A stretch of DNA of 64,000 bases, taken from NCBI GenBank assembly GCA_951406725.2, contig OX597815.1, forward strand, positions 40,548,001 to 40,612,000, written 5' to 3'. The notes under the pieces are model-generated. The model was given only the letters and a program-made list of their open reading frames with translations. It was not told the origin of the DNA and searched no databases. Origin of the DNA: Octopus vulgaris. Its lineage: Eukaryota. A program made the position numbers and the translations under genes. This document shows, piece after piece, positions 405 through 54,614 of this stretch (within the stretch, counting starts at the first letter, position 1; the number at the start of each line of letters is the position of its first letter).

Positions 405-1274
405 GGTGCAATGGGTAAATCATTGGCATGTTATATTTTTATTTTTGCGCATGCACCTGGTTTGTTTTTGATTGTCAACTACACAGTATGGTAGGGTCAG
501 TTGAGCATCATCTGAGAAAAACAGCACCATGACGCAATTCACTCTGCCAGAAATCTGGAAACAGCATGCTGTACTGCTTGGCATTCACACTGGAAGCTCC
601 AGTATGAATATTTCAGCGTGTTTGGGTGTCAATCTGAGGACATGTACTGGTGATTAAAATCAAACATCCAGTCAGCATCATGGTGTATGGAGTGACCACT
701 AGTGATGGTGACGTTATGCCTTGATTCATCTGCCCACATGGCCTCAGGTTTAACATGGAGGCCAACATCAAGTACCTGGAGAAGGTAGTGCTGCCCTTGG
801 TCAAGAGGATGGCTGCTGGAAGACCCAATGTCTAGCAACAGGACTCTGCACCATTCCACACAAGCGGGAGAACTCAGTCATGGCTGTCAGACAATCTTTG
901 TGACTACATCACCTACCTCTTAATAATCTGGCCACCTAACTCCCCAGACTGCAACCTCCTTGATTATTATGTGTGGGGCACAGCTGAACAAGAGACCAAC
1001 AAAACCCCTTGTAACACGAAAGATAAACTGAAGGTAAGGATTATGGCAGCATTCACCAACTTAAACAAGGAGACCATCCAGAAGAGTTGCAGGAGATTCC
1101 AAAGCCATCTGGAGGCCGTGGTTGAAATCAATGGTGATTTTATTGAATAAATTTACTCTTTAGTATTTCAAGATATTTTTATGTAATTTTGATAAATATA
1201 TCTGTTAAAATAAGATGTCAGTGTTATTTTCATTTTTGCATAATTTAGATGATAATATATTCACTGCACTCTAT
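400..1274 (+). mobile_element. Decayed Tc1/mariner DNA transposon (maT/DD37D-like), internally deleted
   Basis: TIR TACAGGGTGC... with a decayed partner GCACTCTA, in a TA context. Broken transposase reads KHPVSIMVYG...QQDSAPFH...WPPNSPDCNLLDYYVWG with in-frame stops. Confidence 0.85.
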
Positions 1275-11590: not shown

Positions 11591-12761
11591 AAGATAAACA
11601 TGTCAAGGTGACTGCATCAGAACCATTGGAATTAATTAAACTAAGTAGCAAAAAGAATCACAACCTCAAAACTTTCATTAACCACGGTCATTTGCTGGAG
11701 TTGAGGCTCTTGAGGGGTATTGCATGTAGTACAATGTTATAGTTGACAAGCAAAAGAATGGAGGAATCCAAAAAGTTGGTAAAGATTCTTTACAATTCAA
11801 ATAGAATATTTAAAACTTTACATTGGTTACAGTATGGTGAACATAGTGTTAAGGAAACAATAGAAAAAGCCCCAAAATCAACTGAAAACAATTATAGTGT
11901 TCATAAACAAAAGTTACAATTGCAATTAAGCTATTTAATTTGAAACATAAACTATCAGAAACTGCACAAATAGAACCAAAACTATATTAAAACAGACTGA
12001 ATTTCCAACTGCTACAGTCCTAAATAAATCATAATCCTTTACTATCACAAATTTGCTGATACATTCATCATTACATCCAAAGATCCTTAGTCAAAGGGAT
12101 CCTGCTTAGTAGCTGTAGTAAATACGGTTGAAGGAGAAGAATACTGTACAAATACTGTACAGTGACCCAGTGATTGGAGTGTGTTAATACAGGTTCATCT
12201 ATTAGATGAACCTGTATTAACACACTCCAATCACTGGGTCACTGTACAGTATTTGTACAGTATTCTTCTCCCTCAACCGTATTTACTACAGCTACTAAGC
12301 AGGATCCCTTTGACTAAGGATCTATGCATCAGATTGTGTGATGCTCCATGCATGAGTTTAATGGAGAACAGCAGCCATAACATGTCCCAATGGACCAGTT
12401 TGTATTTAATAAAGCAGACTGGTCCTTAGCTGAACCATGTTCATATGGTACCTATACCAGACAACCAACACTGAGTGAAGGGTTCTGTTCAGAAGCAGAA
12501 GAGAAGCAATAGATATCAACATTTGATTAATGGACAGATAGGCTAATACTCAGATCACTCAGTTTTTCCTAGTACTCTCTTCTTTCAACTCTAAACTACA
12601 GTTAGAAAACCAAGTCAGTCAACCTGCTTAATCCTTTTGATACCAACACACACAAGACTGCTGCTAGTCAGTAAGATAAACATGTCAAGGTGACTGCATC
12701 AGAACCATTGGAATTAAATAAACTAAGTAGCAAAAAGAATCACAACCTCAAAACTTTCATT
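11591..12761. repeat. 89-bp direct repeats (11591-11679, 12673-12761) enclosing 993 bp
   Basis: AAGATAAACATGTCAAGG...AAACTTTCATT occurs twice with one mismatch. Confidence 0.93.
12081..12323. repeat. 243-bp near-perfect palindrome
   Basis: 121-bp arms around T12202 with one mismatch (GAAGGAG vs GAGGGAG). Confidence 0.95.
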
Positions 12762-12999: not shown

Positions 13000-13320
13000 G
13001 CATTGCCTTACTGGCACATGAAAAAACATTCAAGCGAGGTCATTGCCATGGCCACTGGACTGGCTCCTGTGCAGGTGGTACATAAAAAACACCATTTGAG
13101 TGTGGCTGTTGCCAGTACCACCTGACTGGCCCTCATGCCAGTGGTACGTAAAAGCACCCACTACACTCTCGGAGTGGTTGGCGTTAGGAAGGGCATCCAG
13201 CTGTAGAAACTCTGCCAGATCAGATTGGAGCCTGGTGCAGCCACCTGATTCGCCAGTCCTCAGTCAAATCGTCCAATCCATGCTAGCATGGAAAGCGGAC
13301 GTTAAACAATGATGATGATG
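13000..13320 (+). mobile_element. Non-autonomous retroposon with RTE-like 3' end and (GAT)n tail; copies ~8590-8985(+), ~9705-9940(-), ~15333-15470(-), ~16036-16330(-), ~21873-22080(-)
   Basis: Recurrent GAGTGGTTGGCGTTAGGAAGGGCATCCAGCTGTAGAAAC...GCATGGAAAGCGGACGTTAAAC(GAT)n. Confidence 0.75.
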
Positions 13321-13959: not shown

Positions 13960-14525
13960 GCAGGCTCCAGTCTGGTTAGGCAGTGTTTCTACAGCTGGAT
14001 GCCCTTCCTAACACCAACCACTCCGCGAGTGTAGTGGGTGCTTTTTACGTGCCACCTGCACAGGTGCCAGAGGGGTCTGGCATCGGCCACGATCAGTTGG
14101 TGCTTTTTATGTGCCACCGGCACAGAACCCATTCGAGGCGGGGTTGGCATCGGTCACGTTCGGATGGTGCTTTTTATGTGCCACCGGCACAGAACCCATT
14201 CGAGGCGGGGTTGGCATCGGTCACGTTCGGATGGTGCTTTTTATGTGCCACCGGCACAGAAGCCAGTGGAGGCTGCACTGGCGACGGCCACGTTCGGATG
14301 GTGCTTTTTATGTGTCACCGGCACAGGTATCACAACTACTACTGTTTCCATTGATATTTGGTTCGATGTTCATGTACATGCACTTGACTCAACAGGTCTC
14401 CTCAAGCACAGCGAGATGTTCCGGGATCCCACGATCGGTTGGTGCTTTTTATGTGCCACCGGCACAGAAGCCAGTCAACGCGGTGCTGGCATCAGCCACG
14501 TTCGGATGTTGCTTTTATGGCACAA
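13960..14525 (-). repeat. Same retroposon family with an internal ~68-bp GC-rich tandem array
   Basis: The unit GGTGCTTTTTATGTGCCACCGGCACAG...CACGTTCGGAT repeats from about 14099; this explains the three overlapping ORFs here. Confidence 0.85.
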
Positions 14526-15184
14526 AACTGTCCGATGAACGGGAACGTGAAACTGAGTAACAGTTCTTGTGATATTTTTGCTGCTTTTTAATAAAGCATA
14601 TTACTCTATCTCTCGTATTTGAGTACTATTTTTTTCCACCTTGTTTTGCATTTATGTGCTTACTCTTGTGTGTATATATATATATACATACACACACACG
14701 CACATATTCCATTAGCTAAATTTAATGTCTATAAAGTCAGAGTTTTATACAAAAGTATTTTTAAAATTAAGAAACTATAAGAATAAAATGCCAGTCTTAC
14801 ATCAACAATTTGATTAATAGGGAGAGAGCATATTCTATCTATATTATCTGATGTGCCTAAGATTACATTATCTAATGTGTATCATATTTTAAAATAGCAG
14901 GGATAACAGCAAGTTGGACACATTGTAAAACATGGGTGAGTTCTATTTATAAGGCGCCATGCATGTCAATTTATTTGCAAATGTAATTTCATATATTCTA
15001 ACAACTGAGTAATTAAGAATTTAGCTCTCTAAATTAGGGCCATTATCAGCCAATTACCAGACTGTTTCAAGTCAAGATATATATATATATATATATATGT
15101 AGGTCCCGGGTTGATTCGGGGTTAACCACAGTAAATAAGGTACTCAATACATAGCAGAGTAAAATTAATTTATTATATAGAAGG

Positions 15185-15235
15185 AGCTTCTACAGGACTA
15201 GAACTGTTTCATTCAAGAGAAATCTTCAGGAAGCT
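15185..15235 (-). ncRNA. Type I hammerhead ribozyme motif (family A), mirror copy, sense to the CLEC16A pre-mRNA
   Basis: Exact reverse complement of 15232-15282 within the perfect palindrome 15168-15299. Confidence 0.8.
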
Positions 15236-15282
15236 TCCTGAAGATTTCTCTTGAATGAAACAGTTCTAGTCCTGTAGAAGCT
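15232..15282 (+). ncRNA. Type I hammerhead ribozyme motif (family A)
   Basis: Stem I AGCTTC/GAAGCT; core CTGAAGA (15238-15244); stem II tTTC-TCTT-GAAt; GAAA (15257-15260); stem III CAG/CTG around loop TTCTAGTC; cleavage triplet GUA, cut after 15276. Confidence 0.8.
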
Positions 15283-15297
15283 CCTTCTATATAATAA

Positions 15298-15331
<34 letters not shown>

Positions 15332-18850: not shown

Positions 18851-19191
18851 CAAAGCGTGATATTCTGCCAATTTTGCTACTCAACTTCAAAAAAGGATGT
18901 AAAGCAGCTGAAACTGCTCGCAATATCATCACAACATTTGGTGAGGAAATGACTAGTGAGTGGTTAACTCGAAAATGGTTTAAATGATTTCACAGTGGAG
19001 ACCTGAGCCTTGAAGATCGTGAGCATAATGGATGCCCGTCTGTCATCAATGACAGTCAACTAAAGACCGTCACTGAGAAAAGTCCACATAAAACCACTCG
19101 AGAACTGGCAAAAGAAATTCATGTTAGCCACAAAACTGCCTGCAACTATTTGCATGTGATTGGAAATTCAAAAAAGCTTGACAAATGGGTA
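18851..19191 (+). mobile_element. Mariner transposase N-terminal remnant
   Basis: FKKGCKAAETARNIITTFGEE...RKWFK*FHSGDLSLED...TTRELAKE...KKLDKWV: mariner HTH and linker with a stop. Confidence 0.85.
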
Positions 19192-19560
19192 GTGTGGAAA
19201 TTAAGGCTGACACGGTTGACTTTACAAGTCTAAACAATCAATGCTCTGAATGTTTTCTGTCAAGGGTTTCTAAGAACAATCATGTGACTATTCTTTATCA
19301 CTCAAATCCTATTCAAAACATATACTAATTTGAGCCATGAACTCCCTATAAAAACAGGGTAAACTTCAAACACTAGCCAGAAGCAAGACAGCTGCAATGT
19401 AAACCATGTCTTTCTATTTGAACCTTTTTTAAAAAATCAGTGTTAACTGTGAAACCAGTTAAAGCTTCAAATATTTTAATAAAAATTATTTTAACTATTC
19501 TCAGTGCACTTACAACTTCTATTTTTCTTATATTTCTACCAGTGTGGAATAAAATATCTT

Positions 19561-40010: not shown

Positions 40011-41328
40011 CACATTCTTTTAAACCCAATTAATCTATACTTTTCTTCTAAAATAACAGATATTTGATTCAAAGTTAATTTTTTGCCTTACTCTCCTATT
40101 TTTGACCTCACATATTTTGACCTAACTTTTTTTTTTAATGAACTAAATTTCAACTATTTTATCTCAAAATGTATCTTGGTAGAGGACCATCAATGCTAAA
40201 AAAAACACACACATCCAATTTGGTTGAGGACTAAGTGATGAAGCCTAGAAGTGCTTACAAGTAACTAAAAGTTGACCTTAATATATTCACCCACTGCCAT
40301 GGATGAATGATTCAAAGAATGCAATATGATAATCTAAATCTGTTGTATTTTCTTCACTGCCCTGTCTGTTCATGTATGCCTTTAGATTCTGGTGTTGGCC
40401 AGAGCAAAGTGGATTTGGTAGGTGCATGATAGTTTCTGTTTCTCTAAACTTAACACATTCCAGTACTATGTCCGGAGTTGATGAGGTTATAGATGTTGTT
40501 ACCATTCATGAGTGAATGTAATTTATATTTGTATAGACTAAGCGGGAGCTGCAGTAGTGTCTGGATGCTTGAACAAGTAATGGGGATTGTCTGTCAGAAC
40601 TTACTGTAGTAACAGCCCACACTCCTCAAATATGCAGATGTTTCTGAAAAACCTTATTGAAAAATGTAATTCCTAATAGTTCAACAAAATATTAGATGCC
40701 TGTTTTCATATTACTACTCTATTTTGTCAGTGGAAAAATTCTGACAGGATCAAAATTTCAACTTGCTTCTTTATACCTTTTTCCTTCCTCAATTTTTTTC
40801 ATTAACATCAAAGTTTTATGGTGTTTTCTCACACTTCTTTTAACTCAAGGTGTCTGATATCAATATATTTTTTCTCATCACACACAATTTTTTTTTTACA
40901 CAGAATTATTATACTTACTGCTATGCACCACTGGATACCATGTAAAAATTGTTTCATAAATGTAACTGATTACACAACACAATTTTCTTGTATGCAAACA
41001 ATGGTTAATGACATTATTCCTGAAATTTAGTTTTGCTTTGTTACTAATATGTGGTTTTATATGAAAGTAATTACCAGAAGTGAAAGTGCATGACCTTAGT
41101 GGCTAGGAGGTTGCACTCATGATCATAATTTTGATTCCTGGACCAGGCAGTATTACATTGTGTTCTAGAGTAAAACACTTCATTTCACAATACTCCTGTC
41201 CACTCAGCTGTAAATGAGTCCCAGCAATAGTTGAGAAGGTAACCTTGTGACAGACCAGCGTCCCATTCAGTGGAGAGGGAGGGGAGTGTTGTAATCTCAG
41301 TCACATATAGGCAGACCTAACCTAAATT

Positions 41329-43242
41329 ATATAGAGTCAAGGTGACCAATCAGATGTGGTATTACTAGCTCCTGTATCACAAGCTTGTATTTCACAATGG
41401 GTGTAGTTTCTCTGAGGAAAATCAACTACTTGTTTCATTTATTCTATCACAAATATCTTTTCCTGGAAAGGTATTATTACATCAATATAACATTTCAAAA
41501 GCCAGTCTCATGGACTGGTTTTAATTAACTATTATGACTGCTGAAAGGAATGACATCCCTGTAAGAACTCAAACCTAAACCCAACAGCTAATTATTTCAA
41601 AGAAAATAACCAAATATATTGCTTTATTTTACAAATGGTGTTCAAACAGCTTCAATAAAAATATAAATACATGGAAAACAAGCAATATTAAAAAAAAAAA
41701 GAATTTTCAATAAACATAAAAATATAAAAGTAGCAATAAACAATACAATAATTTTTAATTGTAATACATGTTTTAAATGGCACATTTTAGCAGACAAAAT
41801 TCTTTTTATTGAAAAAGAACTGGTGATAAAAAAAATTACTTTATTTACAGCTACTTCACGGTTGTCCTGAAACTGTTGTTGTTTGGTACCAGTCAGTGTG
41901 ATTTCAGCAAACCTTTTTGCATGGAAGTAACCAGTCAACTTTTTTTTTTTTAAACCCAAAATCTTGTTCACTTTGCCTGCTATGCTTAAATTATGTTAAT
42001 TTGGTTTAAAATGCATTCCTTTTTTCAATAAAGCATAGTAAGGAAAGATGCATAGGAGCCTTGCCTAGAAAATGATCAATATGAAGAAAATCTATACTAC
42101 TAATCTCTTCAAACAACTCAAGAGAAAATTCATGGAGATAATTTAGACAGTCCTCATTTACAGGTTTAGCTCCAGCTCAATCCTGGCTGAAGAGACTTTT
42201 GATCAAAAGCATTCCAACCATGACCATCCAATCTGTTTATGGGTATGTAGGATTACATTATCTGTCTGTTTATCTGAGAAGTTCACTTTGCAGTCATTCT
42301 ATCTCACAGTATGACATCAAAAAAATTTCTTTACCACAGTCTCATGTCAAACCAAACCTAGCAAGTGAAATTAAGTAAACAGAAACTGAGTAGAAACTGG
42401 CAAAGTGGACTGTATCTGTAATTCAAAGGTTTGGCTTTGCAACATTGCATCATGCTGATTCTACATGAATTAAAGAAATTCATAGATCTGTGTAATACTC
42501 AACCACTTTGCTTGTTAATTCACTGAGTATGTCATTAAACTAACTGAACAACTTTTAAATATTTTTATATGTCAAAAACCTCAAAATGCCATCTAATAGT
42601 CATGATAACCTAGTCTCCAATGAAACAAAAGTATAATCCCTATACATTTCAAATAAAGTCTTCCTCTGTATTCTCCCTAAATGCGAGCAACATTCCACTT
42701 TCAAAAACATTACAAATACTTGAGCCTAACTATCTGCAATTTCTTATATATCAATACCCTCCTATCTCTTAAAGCCAAAACATTCCTCAGAGCTGATAAG
42801 CTGCTGACCCACTACAAAACTAAAGTGCGATCTACCTACCAGGACAAACACAAACATCTTCTGCATCTGAAAAAAAGATTGACAGACTTGTACACATAAC
42901 CACTAACTCATTGACACATTTTTTTTTCTCTTATCTTTTAATAACTACTACTATGATGTATGCTTCTCTGAACTTGATGCATTCCCCTCTCCTTGTTGTC
43001 ATGATCCTACCCAAGCCTTTCACTTAATAGAAAGACTTGTTTAATCCCAGGTTAAATTCTAGCTTTGATTATTCCAGCTTTTCTTTTTCTGTTGTTTGGT
43101 ACCAGTCAGTATGGTTATTTGTGATAGAATAAATGAAGCAAGTAGTTGATTTTCCTCAGAGAAACTACACCCATTGTGAAATACAAGCTTGTGATACAGG
43201 AGCTAGTAATACCACATCTGATTGGTCACCTTGACTCTATAT
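41329..43242. repeat. 127-bp inverted repeat pair (41329-41455 / 43116-43242)
   Basis: Reverse-complement match with one mismatch across a spacer of about 1.66 kb. Confidence 0.93.
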
Positions 43243-45363
43243 GTCTAAGATTACATTATCTAATGTACTATTTTTGTACATTATTGTACTATTATTTAAG
43301 GAAATTTGATTATTTCTTGTAGGTTAAGCAACCACCTAAGGACTCCTTTTGTGGCTTGTTCAAACAGATGTTTTACTACAAGATGTCAATCTACAGAAAG
43401 TGAAGCTGAAACTCCACTACATCAACCTCACCAGTCTGGGACAGTCTAAAGTGGATAGGTACTGCCTCTTTGAGTAATAAAAAATATGTATATCATCACT
43501 ATCAACATAATTTTTATTTGCCTTCAAAGCTAACACAGGCTGAATGCATTGCCTCAGTCCACGTTGGTTCTTATTCAGAGGTACTGCCATTCTTGTTGAG
43601 TTGGAGGACCATGTTAGTGTGTGTGTGTGTACACACACACGGTATTCTGGTGTAATTGGACAAGTTTTTTTGTCTCCTTTTTTTCAGGAACATTTTGATG
43701 TATGAACAGTAACAGTCAATGGCAATAAAGAGAATAAAGATTGAAGTAGTAGCTGAGAAAAAGTTAGCTGAGTTGGGAGGACTAGAAGCTAAATATTGGA
43801 AAAGAGTCGCCTGTATCATGATGATTTGCATCAGATATCAAAATCTCAACATCATGGCTGCTGCTCAATGCTCTGTGAACACTGTAAAGGTTGTCAGACA
43901 TGACATGAACAGCTAACAATTTTCAAATGGTAAAATGATTTCATTCATTCAATGATAAAAATTTTGCTGCATTACAATTACAAATTATCAAGGTAGAGTA
44001 GAGCAAACCAATAGCATTATATTACTGGTACTTATTCTATTTCTCTAATGGTGAGGAGACTCTAGTTTGAGAACTTATGTCCAGGCCAGTCACATAATCC
44101 TTTAGAAATATATAATTTATTACTGTTAATACTTGTACATACAGTGTAAGTGTTATATACTAAAAGCAACATGAAAATATAGTTCCTTTCCCTTCTGTGG
44201 TGAAAGATTGTAAAATACTCAGTTCCCTATCTCAAGTGAAATAAAAGTAAAAGGAGAAACTGGGAACTCATCTTAAATTTCTGTAATAATGTTTTTTAAC
44301 CACATGTCAGCTCCAATCAAATACATATGATGAAAGGCCTTCTGTCTATGACCATTGCATCTTATTTTCAGGTATTGTACATAATACATTATTCACTGTG
44401 CACTTTCCTTAAGATAGTAGTGTGATCTGAGACAGATTTGGCTGCTATTCTGAGCAACATAGTAGAGGCTCCTTCATGACCTATAATAGTATTTACATTT
44501 ATATTTATAATGTAGGCACACAAGGCCACATATGTTATATATTTTGATAGAGGGGTTATTCAATTAAATCAACCCCACTACTTGAATGGTAATTTATTGT
44601 ATCAATTCTGGAATAATGAAAGGAAAAAATTGACCAAGCAGAATGAGACTGAAACAGAACTAAGTACCACAAAGAATGGTGTCCAGCTCAATATTGATTC
44701 TGCCATTAATAATTATAATAATTTTTCATACTGGAATAAGCTAATTTAAAAGGGAGGAGGATAATGTCAATTGAATCTACTGCAATACAAATCTGGCTAG
44801 ATTTGAATGAGGACCTAACTGGGGCACAGAAACAAAATTCCCTTCTTGCACAGTTTTTCCTGCAGGTATCAACCTGCAAAAATTTAATCCTTTCTATATC
44901 AATCCACTCAAGACAGCCTTCAATCCCATGATACAAAACCATTTGTTTTAAAATGTTTGTATGTAACTCTTTAGCATTCAAATTATTCTGTCAAATGTAA
45001 TGCTTATTTATTCACATTGTTTTGAATTAATCATGCATTGTCTCATAGCCTTGAGACTTTGATAATGTGGTCATAGGATAGGTGTGAGAGGCAGGATATG
45101 TCTGATTTGAACATAAAACATACATGCAAAAGGGTTAAATCTTTTTTTTCAGTTCTGTTCCAAACACCAAATTAATAATGAACAAGTTATGTTATAAATT
45201 TCTCTAAATTCTTCATTTTTAAAAAAATTAATTGAGATACAGTCAATTTCATTGCCAGATTTTATAATAAATATGGTAACAAAAGGCTAAAATGGAACAT
45301 GAATCACATTAATGTCAATGGTCATGAAGGACCTGAAAATACCATAGACAGAGCCCCTGCCTC

Positions 45364-53819: not shown

Positions 53820-53999
53820 ATATTAGGGAATAAATCCAAATTTACAGGGAAAATCAGATTTAGGATTGAATCCAATTTTATAGTAAAATATTATATAATA
53901 TTAATTAGAGACAAAACCACTATTTTGCAAATCAAACAAAGAAAGACTTAATCCAATACATAAAACAATTTTAATATAAATTAAATAAAATTATATTAG

Positions 54000-54045
54000 C
54001 CACTACAATTGTTTCATGTCTCTTCTCAGGACATTCATCAGGTGG
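54000..54045 (-). ncRNA. Minimal type I hammerhead ribozyme motif (family B), mirror copy, sense to the CLEC16A pre-mRNA
   Basis: Exact reverse complement of 54105-54150 within the palindrome 53892-54258. Confidence 0.88.
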
Positions 54046-54104
54046 ATTTCAGGTCTTCTATTCTATTTTAAGTTTAACTTAAAATAGAATAGAAGACCTG
54101 AAAT

Positions 54105-54150
54105 CCACCTGATGAATGTCCTGAGAAGAGACATGAAACAATTGTAGTGG
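54105..54150 (+). ncRNA. Minimal type I hammerhead ribozyme motif (family B, Penelope-like)
   Basis: Stem I CCAC/GTGG; core CTGATGA (54109-54115); stem II ATGTC/GACAT; GAAA (54135-54138); minimal stem III with palindromic CAATTG; triplet GUA, cut after 54146. Confidence 0.88.
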
Positions 54151-54245
54151 CTAATATAATTTTATTTAATTTATATTAAAATTGTTTTATGTATTGGATT
54201 AAGTCTTTCTTTGTTTGATTTGCAAAATAGTGGTTTTGTCTCTAA

Positions 54246-54295
<50 letters not shown>

Positions 54296-54299
<4 letters not shown>

Positions 54300-54614
54300 T
54301 CTATAATTATGAGTATAATTATAATTAGGGTTCAGCAAAATTTGCTTCACCACATACCGAAATTTAGAAATAGCAGTTAAACTACTATAAGATATCTCCC
54401 AATTGCTGTCTGGAAGATATCTTATGGTAGTTTAACTGCTATTTCTAAATTTCGGTATGTGGTGAAGCAAATTTTGCTGAACCCTAAATATAATTATACA
54501 ATTATACTCATAATTATAGAATTTTTGTATAAGTTTACCAATAACAGTTCTTTTAACATACCAAACTACTTGGTAAAATTATTAATTAATTAATTTTACC
54601 CTTTATTATTATTG
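54296..54614. mobile_element. Fold-back insert in (TA)n without a canonical hammerhead
   Basis: Roughly 100-bp inverted arms (54296-54397 / 54415-54524), a right extension ending TTATTATTATTG, and (TA)n flanks. Confidence 0.6.

What the first reader, a model, noticed from the sequence alone, without database searches (positions are those of the whole stretch)
15168..15299. Hammerhead family A whose palindrome axis lies inside its own stem I
Seen: the axis is AAG|CTT (15231-15236), which overlaps the 5' strand of stem I (AGCTTC), so the two opposite-strand ribozymes overlap by 4 bp. Stem III is a real CAG/CTG helix whose loop contains CTAG. Stem II opens with a non-canonical U.U pair. Inference: the self-complementary AAGCTT nucleated fold-back priming, tying the ribozyme sequence to the duplication mechanism, and this motif may work as a monomer.
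Basis: partly seen in the sequence, partly recalled or inferred. Interest (0 to 1): 0.72.

Follow-up and report, generated by a model that had tools for sequence, protein, structure and literature searches.

The report
Penelope-like hammerhead palindrome in TA repeat
A 201-base insertion in a TA microsatellite holds two head-to-head copies of the end of a very abundant animal repeat, likely a Penelope-like retrotransposon, each with a hammerhead ribozyme motif that is predicted to be shut off by the palindrome itself; this layout is already described for such elements.

Summary
In detail: 15168-15299 is a perfect 66+66 palindrome with a type I hammerhead motif on each strand sharing AGCT. The unit is larger than reported. 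The left arm runs on by a 69-nt tail to 15099, and both ends enter (TA)n. Two more palindromes in the window have this layout. Contigs of three DNA runs show a very high-copy family, a recurrent tail-less end, and this same axis in other copies, but only 0.4-6% of neighbouring depth crosses it. Copies that continue past stem I show that only AGCT is native, not AAGCTT. One contig has a zero-spacer axis 6 nt away with no native micro-palindrome. So the micro-palindrome may favour the junction but is not required. U.U in stem II and a 4-bp stem III are usual in Hydra-clade Penelope hammerheads; only the 8-nt loop III is odd. Monomer folding is marginal, and the whole palindrome is predicted to block the ribozyme. 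Verdict: likely a truncated Penelope-like insertion with the known inverted-end-plus-tail anatomy; the parent RT/endonuclease ORF was not found. New member of a known kind.

The parts
15077..15098 (.). (TA)11 microsatellite, left half of the likely target
15099..15167 (-). 69-nt one-sided tail: element sequence that continues the left arm into (TA)n
   Evidence: sequence; family-level depth over 15110-15167, peak 0.41-0.46 of arm peak in 3 DNA runs; 15068-15109 was skipped by the tool as repeat
15168..15233 (-). left arm, 5'-truncated element end
15234..15299 (+). right arm, tail-less element end running into (TA)n
   Evidence: tail-less end at the mirror position 15168 seen in 2, 14 and 16 contigs of the three DNA runs
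15232..15235 (.). AGCT, the native micro-palindrome at the axis, shared by both stem I 5' strands
   Evidence: stem I complement; loose ends behind 15235
15232..15282 (+). type I hammerhead motif; predicted cleavage after 15276
   Evidence: activity untested
15185..15235 (-). mirror type I hammerhead motif; predicted cleavage at 15191
   Evidence: activity untested
15260..15275 (+). stem III, 4 bp with 8-nt loop containing CTAG; can pair with a second copy
   Evidence: hairpin -1.4 kcal/mol, self-duplex -12.8 kcal/mol
15273..15291 (+). predicted competing hairpin covering the cleavage site and the 3' strand of stem I
   Evidence: minimum-energy fold of 15232-15299 and of 15222-15300
15298..15330 (.). 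(TA)8(CA)n microsatellite, right half of the likely target

Best explanation
15099-15299 is a short insertion in a (TA)n microsatellite made of two head-to-head copies of the end of a very high-copy repeat, likely a Penelope-like retrotransposon, probably formed when both cut target strands primed reverse transcription and the two truncated cDNAs were joined at the native AGCT. Shown: palindrome, one-sided tail, (TA)n at both ends, hammerhead motif, high family depth, recurrent tail-less end, recurrent axis, a second axis. Inferred steps: (1) an element-encoded GIY-YIG endonuclease nicks both strands of (TA)n; (2) reverse transcription of uncleaved element RNA starts at the tail end on one strand and at the tail-less site on the other; (3) both cDNAs stop near the foot of stem I; (4) being the same sense, their 3' ends can pair only through a self-complementary stretch, here AGCT, and fill-in gives a zero-spacer palindrome with unequal arms. 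The hammerhead is cargo of the element's terminal repeat. At this locus read-through RNA would fold into the 66-bp hairpin and not cleave.
For: Anatomy matches published Penelope-like insertions: inverted 5'-truncated copy, a tail at only one end, microsatellite targets (PMC8557442); palindromes at inverted junctions (PMC3846280). The purified Anolis element nicks AT-rich DNA, extends both strands, has two RT start sites that define the tail, is predicted to be a dimer and uses uncleaved RNA (PMC11167929). Hydra-clade hammerheads: sense strand, near the 3' end, (TA)n targets, U.U at the base of stem II in 14 of 26 rows, 3-4 bp stem III in all 26 (File S2). Two more palindromes of this layout in the window: 53820-54258 with a hammerhead motif and about 54297-54610 without one. 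Family depth peak 5.6e5, 9.2e5 and 2.3e6 against 18.5, 8.4 and 9.2 on the unique flank; tail peak 0.41-0.46 of arm peak; no fall in depth at the cleavage site (bins 15180-15189 to 15190-15199 rise in 3 of 3 DNA runs). Hammerhead fold is 76 kcal/mol above the ensemble in the whole palindrome and 10 kcal/mol above once 10 nt of the other arm are included.
Against: No RT or GIY-YIG ORF was linked to the family: none among 30 of 77 window ORFs scanned, no homologous locus in four informative collection scans, no match of the motif terms in the Craig 2021 supplement that belongs to this family. The tail is 69 nt, longer than the published 30-40 nt. The second axis has no native micro-palindrome, so annealing cannot explain every junction, and two cDNAs stopping at the same base without homology is itself hard to explain. 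The neighbours have 1-nt and about 9-nt spacers, which fit fold-back as well. Loop III (8 nt) is longer than in all 26 Hydra rows (1-3 nt). No empty site or target duplication could be seen. Contig depth is not a copy number, and 47 loose ends were not shown.
Confidence: 0.55

Rival explanations
1. Same Penelope-like origin, but the junction forms by fold-back: one cDNA (or an antisense RNA) turns on itself and primes a copy of itself, which stops at the AT-rich stretch and anneals to (TA)n.
For: Explains identical arms and why the second arm is never longer than the first; tail-less ends cluster in an AT-rich stretch at 15164-15171; neighbours with 1-nt and about 9-nt spacers; proposed in PMC3846280; this axis recurs.
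Against: AGCT has no loop and no native closing stem: the native base after it on the cDNA does not pair, and no hairpin at the axis was predicted; a non-templated base would be needed here and about three at the second axis.
Confidence: 0.27
2. The insertion began as a longer inverted pair and its centre was later trimmed and rejoined at AGCT during repair of a cruciform or hairpin, so the axis says nothing about retrotransposition.
For: Long palindromes are unstable (own knowledge); rejoining two identical ends also needs a micro-palindrome or blunt ends; would account for several zero-spacer axes.
Against: Arms are 66 of 66 identical and about half of the laid contigs are 99% or more alike, which suggests little time; no longer allele was seen, though contigs break at the flanking microsatellite.
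Confidence: 0.1
3. The palindrome is a self-contained non-autonomous unit (MITE-like or fold-back DNA element, or a selected two-strand ribozyme cassette) that spreads as a whole with this axis.
For: Other copies share the axis in 3 of 3 DNA runs of three organism labels; short perfect inverted repeat in TA targets.
Against: Ends are unequal (one-sided tail); 94% or more of neighbouring depth does not cross the axis; the palindrome is predicted to inactivate both ribozymes; the two neighbours put their axes elsewhere relative to the ribozyme or lack one.
Confidence: 0.06
4. Assembly or library fold-back artefact.
For: Arms are 100% identical; no contig spans the whole locus.
Against: The same junction appears in contigs of three DNA runs from separate studies; the one-sided tail and (TA)n ends repeat at two other window loci, one with 89% identical arms.
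Confidence: 0.02

Closest known systems
[quoted passage not shown] 2021, PMC8557442)
   Same: Sense-strand type I hammerhead about 100-200 nt from the 3' end (131 nt here), U.U at the base of stem II (14 of 26 rows), ACAG/CTGT stem III (4 of 26 rows), (TA)n targets, inverted 5'-truncated copy noted for Penelope-13_HM.
   Different: Loop III is 8 nt here, 1-3 nt in all 26 rows; tail 69 nt against 30-40 nt; ORF not seen; sequence does not match the listed octopus Hydra hammerhead.
Penelope elements of Adineta vaga (Arkhipova et al. 2013, PMC3846280)
   Same: Head-to-head inverted pLTRs, palindromes at the junction, overlap of inverted and direct pLTR, optional tail on one pLTR; self-priming proposed.
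   Different: There the palindromes are 18-38 bp parts of longer elements with target duplications; here the whole insertion is 201 bp and the native palindrome is 4 nt. In the passages read the junction was not related to a hammerhead.
Poseidon element of Anolis (Frangieh et al. 2024, PMC11167929)
   Same: AT-rich target, both strands extended, two start sites giving tailed and tail-less ends, uncleaved RNA as template.
   Different: Inverted junctions were not reconstituted in the parts read; its hammerhead needed the protein to cleave; nothing was assayed here.
Metazoan minimal PLE hammerheads and non-LTR retrozymes (PMC4209133; bioRxiv 10.64898/2026.07.22.740005)
   Same: Type I topology, palindromic character around loop III, opposite-strand pairs 100-700 bp apart already noted in Schistosoma.
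   Different: Stem III can close as a monomer here; copies are head-to-head and overlap instead of being tandem, so this is not a retrozyme array.

Membership tests
Type I hammerhead ribozyme | CUGANGA, GAAA and NUH around three helices | tested here: met
Type I hammerhead ribozyme | Match to a curated Rfam hammerhead model | tested here: not met
   0 gathering-level matches; no hammerhead among 31 E-value matches. Minimal variants are known to escape standard descriptors.
Type I hammerhead ribozyme | Purine-pyrimidine pair 10.1-11.1 closing stem II | tested here: not met
   U.U here; a natural variant reported as the best-tolerated mismatch (PMC3088659) and common in Hydra elements
Type I hammerhead ribozyme | Covariation in the stems across copies | tested here: inconclusive
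   Only two variants reached 2% and both lie in loop II; compatible with constraint, but most positions of the stretch are unconstrained, so this is weak
Type I hammerhead ribozyme | Self-cleavage after N17 | not testable with these tools
   needs in vitro assay
Penelope-like elements | Telomerase-like RT plus GIY-YIG endonuclease ORF | tested here: inconclusive
   Absent from this 201-bp copy; parent not retrieved; no whole genome held
Penelope-like elements | Hammerhead in the terminal repeat near the 3' end | tested here: met
   core begins 131 nt from the tailed end
Penelope-like elements | Inverted 5'-truncated copy and a tail at one end only | tested here: met
   tail is 69 nt against 30-40 nt published
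Penelope-like elements | Insertion bias for (TA)n (Hydra, Naiad) | tested here: met
   both ends here; loose ends before 15164-15171 mostly run into (TA)n
Hydra clade | RWK and DKT motifs, endonuclease without CCHH | not testable with these tools
   no ORF in hand
Non-LTR retrozyme | Head-to-tail tandem units each with a hammerhead | tested here: not met
   copies are head-to-head; no further copy in the window
MITE / fold-back DNA transposon | Matching terminal inverted repeats at both ends and a defined target duplication | tested here: not met
   ends unequal by 69 nt; duplication not discernible in (TA)n

The most novel reading that the evidence does not exclude
In this family the AGCT of hammerhead stem I is a true hot spot where two same-sense cDNAs made by a dimeric Penelope-like protein on both target strands are joined. 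Tens to hundreds of independent 200-bp insertions would then record twin priming as the source of Penelope inverted ends, and each would lock its own ribozyme in a perfect hairpin.
Probability: 0.25. Interest if true: 0.58.

Novelty: new member of a known kind. Interest (0 to 1): 0.3.

Why it matters
How Penelope-like elements make their inverted ends is still open (PMC8557442). A family with very many short, young, fully readable junctions and loop II markers lets fold-back and two-cDNA joining be told apart from a genome alone. Such palindromes would also give long perfect double-stranded RNA if transcribed, the kind of substrate linked to heavy A-to-I editing (PMC5625713); expression of this locus was not shown. 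The ribozyme itself is an ordinary Penelope-type hammerhead with one odd loop.

Tried and rejected
Whole-genome search: no genome is held for this window, so axis positions could not be counted directly. Collection scans for the family: 0 hits in metagenome and viral contigs, 0 in prokaryote genomes, 1 hit with a shorter pattern that lacks the core and is a chance match. Earlier findings of the scan: nothing in three look-ups. No RNA holder listed; run X9 is only guessed to be RNA and its family contigs say nothing on this locus. Empty-site test failed: the flank contigs stop at the (TA)n in 3 of 3 DNA runs. Rfam miRNA matches are the perfect hairpin, all below gathering score. One search had stem I out of register by one base; its hammerhead energies were discarded and replaced. 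Tail folds are not better than shuffles (z -1.08, -1.02, -0.34), so no conserved tail structure is claimed. The 63-nt monomer is not more stable than shuffles (z -0.24). A loose end behind 15211 in X9 may be a further junction but was too short to count. Lunse et al. 2017 on dimeric PLE hammerheads is not held and was seen only as cited in a review. Six literature searches listed no paper describing a junction inside hammerhead stem I, and none with both Penelope pLTR terms and 'twin priming'; the library lacks most subscription papers, and Repbase or Dfam libraries could not be searched.

Full report
Observation. 15168-15299 is a perfect palindrome of 66+66 nt with no spacer and centre AAG|CTT. 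Each strand carries a type I hammerhead motif. On the plus strand: stem I 15232-15237/15277-15282, core 15238-15244, U.U then a 3-bp stem II, GAAA, a 4-bp stem III with an 8-nt loop containing CTAG, and GUA ending at 15276. A strict descriptor hit only these two places and gave 0.01 hits per simulated 64 kb (1 of 100 simulations); a looser one gave 0.14. Rfam does not recognise the motif.

The real unit. The left arm continues for 69 nt (15099-15167) and ends in (TA)11; the right arm ends directly in (TA)8(CA)n. The insertion is therefore 201 bp: microsatellite, tailed copy, tail-less copy, microsatellite, with the two copies head to head. Two other palindromes in the window are built alike. 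One at 53820-54258 has 183-nt arms, a 1-nt spacer, a tail of about 70 nt and a different hammerhead whose core starts 33 nt from the axis. One at about 54297-54610 has a spacer of about 9 nt, a tail on the right and no hammerhead hit. The window is AT-rich, microsatellite-rich animal DNA. Its repeats look like octopus repeats to me, but that is recalled and was not tested.

Other copies. No whole genome is held, so I laid contigs of 4 of the 24 listed runs (three DNA, one guessed RNA) on the left flank, tail, left arm and 17 nt past the axis. Depth over the arm peaks at 5.6e5, 9.2e5 and 2.3e6 against 18.5, 8.4 and 9.2 on the unique flank; this is not a copy number but shows a very abundant family under three organism labels. 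Tail peak is 0.41, 0.45 and 0.46 of arm peak, as expected if about half of the ends are tailed. The tail-less end at 15168 recurs (2, 14 and 16 contigs), with further ends at 15164-15171, mostly running into (TA)n. Depth does not fall at the predicted cleavage site, which fits uncleaved RNA as template. Only two variants reached 2%, both in loop II. The tool showed 22 loose-end rows and 32 pieces; 47 and 3004 more were not shown, and no joint was listed.

The axis. First, the same axis recurs: a contig with 5 differences ends at 15248, exactly 15 nt past the axis, and depth in 15240-15249 is 158, 546 and 135 times the flank. That bin is only 3.0%, 5.8% and 0.4% of the bin before it, and some of it may come from nearby axes aligned with gaps. 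Second, loose ends behind 15235 (5, 5 and 20 contigs in the DNA runs, agreement about 0.6) begin with A on the plus strand, so on the element strand the base before AGCT is T, not A. AAGCTT is thus partly a product of the duplication and only AGCT is native. 4-mer palindromes take up 12 of 134 positions of the unit, so one coincidence is weak evidence. Third, an 18-nt loose end behind 15224 in one contig reads, by eye, as a second zero-spacer palindrome: it carries both loop II variants, ends 15 nt past its axis, and its right arm starts at G5, 6 nt further in, where the native sequence has no micro-palindrome. This rests on one contig.

Mechanism. Published Penelope-like insertions have an inverted 5'-truncated copy, a one-sided 30-40 nt tail and microsatellite targets (PMC8557442, passages). 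Palindromes at the inverted junction were read as self-priming in 2013 (PMC3846280, passages and Discussion). The purified Anolis element nicks AT-rich DNA, extends both strands, starts at two sites that define the tail, is predicted to be dimeric and does not need ribozyme cleavage (PMC11167929, parts 1-2 of 4). AGCT with no loop cannot fold back within one strand, and no hairpin at the axis was predicted, but two same-sense cDNA ends can pair through it. I therefore favour priming on both target strands followed by joining (0.55) over fold-back (0.27). This is inference. The second axis fits neither model well, and the neighbours' spacers fit both.

The ribozyme. In File S2 of PMC8557442 (supplement part 2 of 59; Hydra section) 14 of 26 Hydra rows have U.U at the base of stem II, all 26 have a 3-4 bp stem III with a 1-3 nt loop, and 4 have the same ACAG/CTGT helix. 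U.U is a known natural variant (PMC3088659, passages). Two of the three features flagged are thus usual; the 8-nt loop III is the odd one. It lets stem III close in a monomer (-1.4 kcal/mol), but pairing with a second copy is much stronger (-12.8). Metazoan PLE hammerheads mostly cleave weakly and as dimers (PMC4209133, parts 1-2 of 4; review PMC6765202, passages). Monomer activity is possible but not shown; silence in read-through transcripts of this locus is predicted.

Membership. The anatomy meets three tested features of Penelope-like elements. The defining RT plus GIY-YIG ORF was not retrieved (30 of 77 window ORFs scanned), so membership is likely, not shown, and the Hydra assignment rests on ribozyme build and target only. 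It is not a tandem retrozyme (bioRxiv 10.64898/2026.07.22.740005, part 1 of 5) and not a symmetric MITE. Penelope-like elements are abundant in one annotated octopus genome (6.83%, 190 families; PMC13282606, passages and supplement search), so the family may already sit in a repeat library that I could not search; bioRxiv supplements were closed.

Novelty. Six searches listed no description of a junction inside stem I, but inverted ends, junction palindromes, self-priming and opposite-strand hammerhead pairs are all in print. Verdict: new member of a known kind, interest 0.3. Its value is as material for testing how Penelope inverted ends form.

Noticed in passing
window 53820-54258: Second hammerhead family: 183-nt perfect arms, 1-nt spacer, tail of about 70 nt on the left, 5-bp stem II and a fully palindromic stem III (dimer type), in (TA)n.
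   Followed up: partly
window 54297-54610: Third head-to-head palindrome sharing a (TA)22 run with the previous one; arms about 89% identical, spacer about 9 nt, tail on the right, no hammerhead hit; may be a copy truncated 3' of its ribozyme or from a ribozyme-less clade.
   Followed up: partly
window 12075-12329: 127-nt arms, 124 of 127 matching, 1-nt spacer, no hammerhead hit and no (TA)n flanks; probably a different element type.
   Followed up: no
window 15273-15291: A native hairpin is predicted over the cleavage site and the 3' strand of stem I; it could keep the ribozyme off until protein binding.
   Followed up: partly
loose ends behind 15235: Native sequence upstream of stem I seems to hold further 6-8 nt micro-palindromes; low agreement of these loose ends may hide more axes there.
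   Followed up: no
run X4, loose end behind 15163: A variant with G at the cleavage position (predicted inactive) appears in the consensus of 14 contigs.
   Followed up: no
window 41318-41455 and 43116-43253: 138-nt inverted repeat, 96% complementary, 1660 nt apart; possibly ends of a DNA transposon.
   Followed up: no
window 14073-14534: Tandem array with a 67-nt period inside a G+C-richer dispersed repeat that also has an inverted partner at 13150-13234.
   Followed up: no
window 836-1147 and 18988-19230: Weak Pfam matches to DDE_3 and Tc3-type HTH domains, below curated cut-offs; likely mariner-type remnants.
   Followed up: partly
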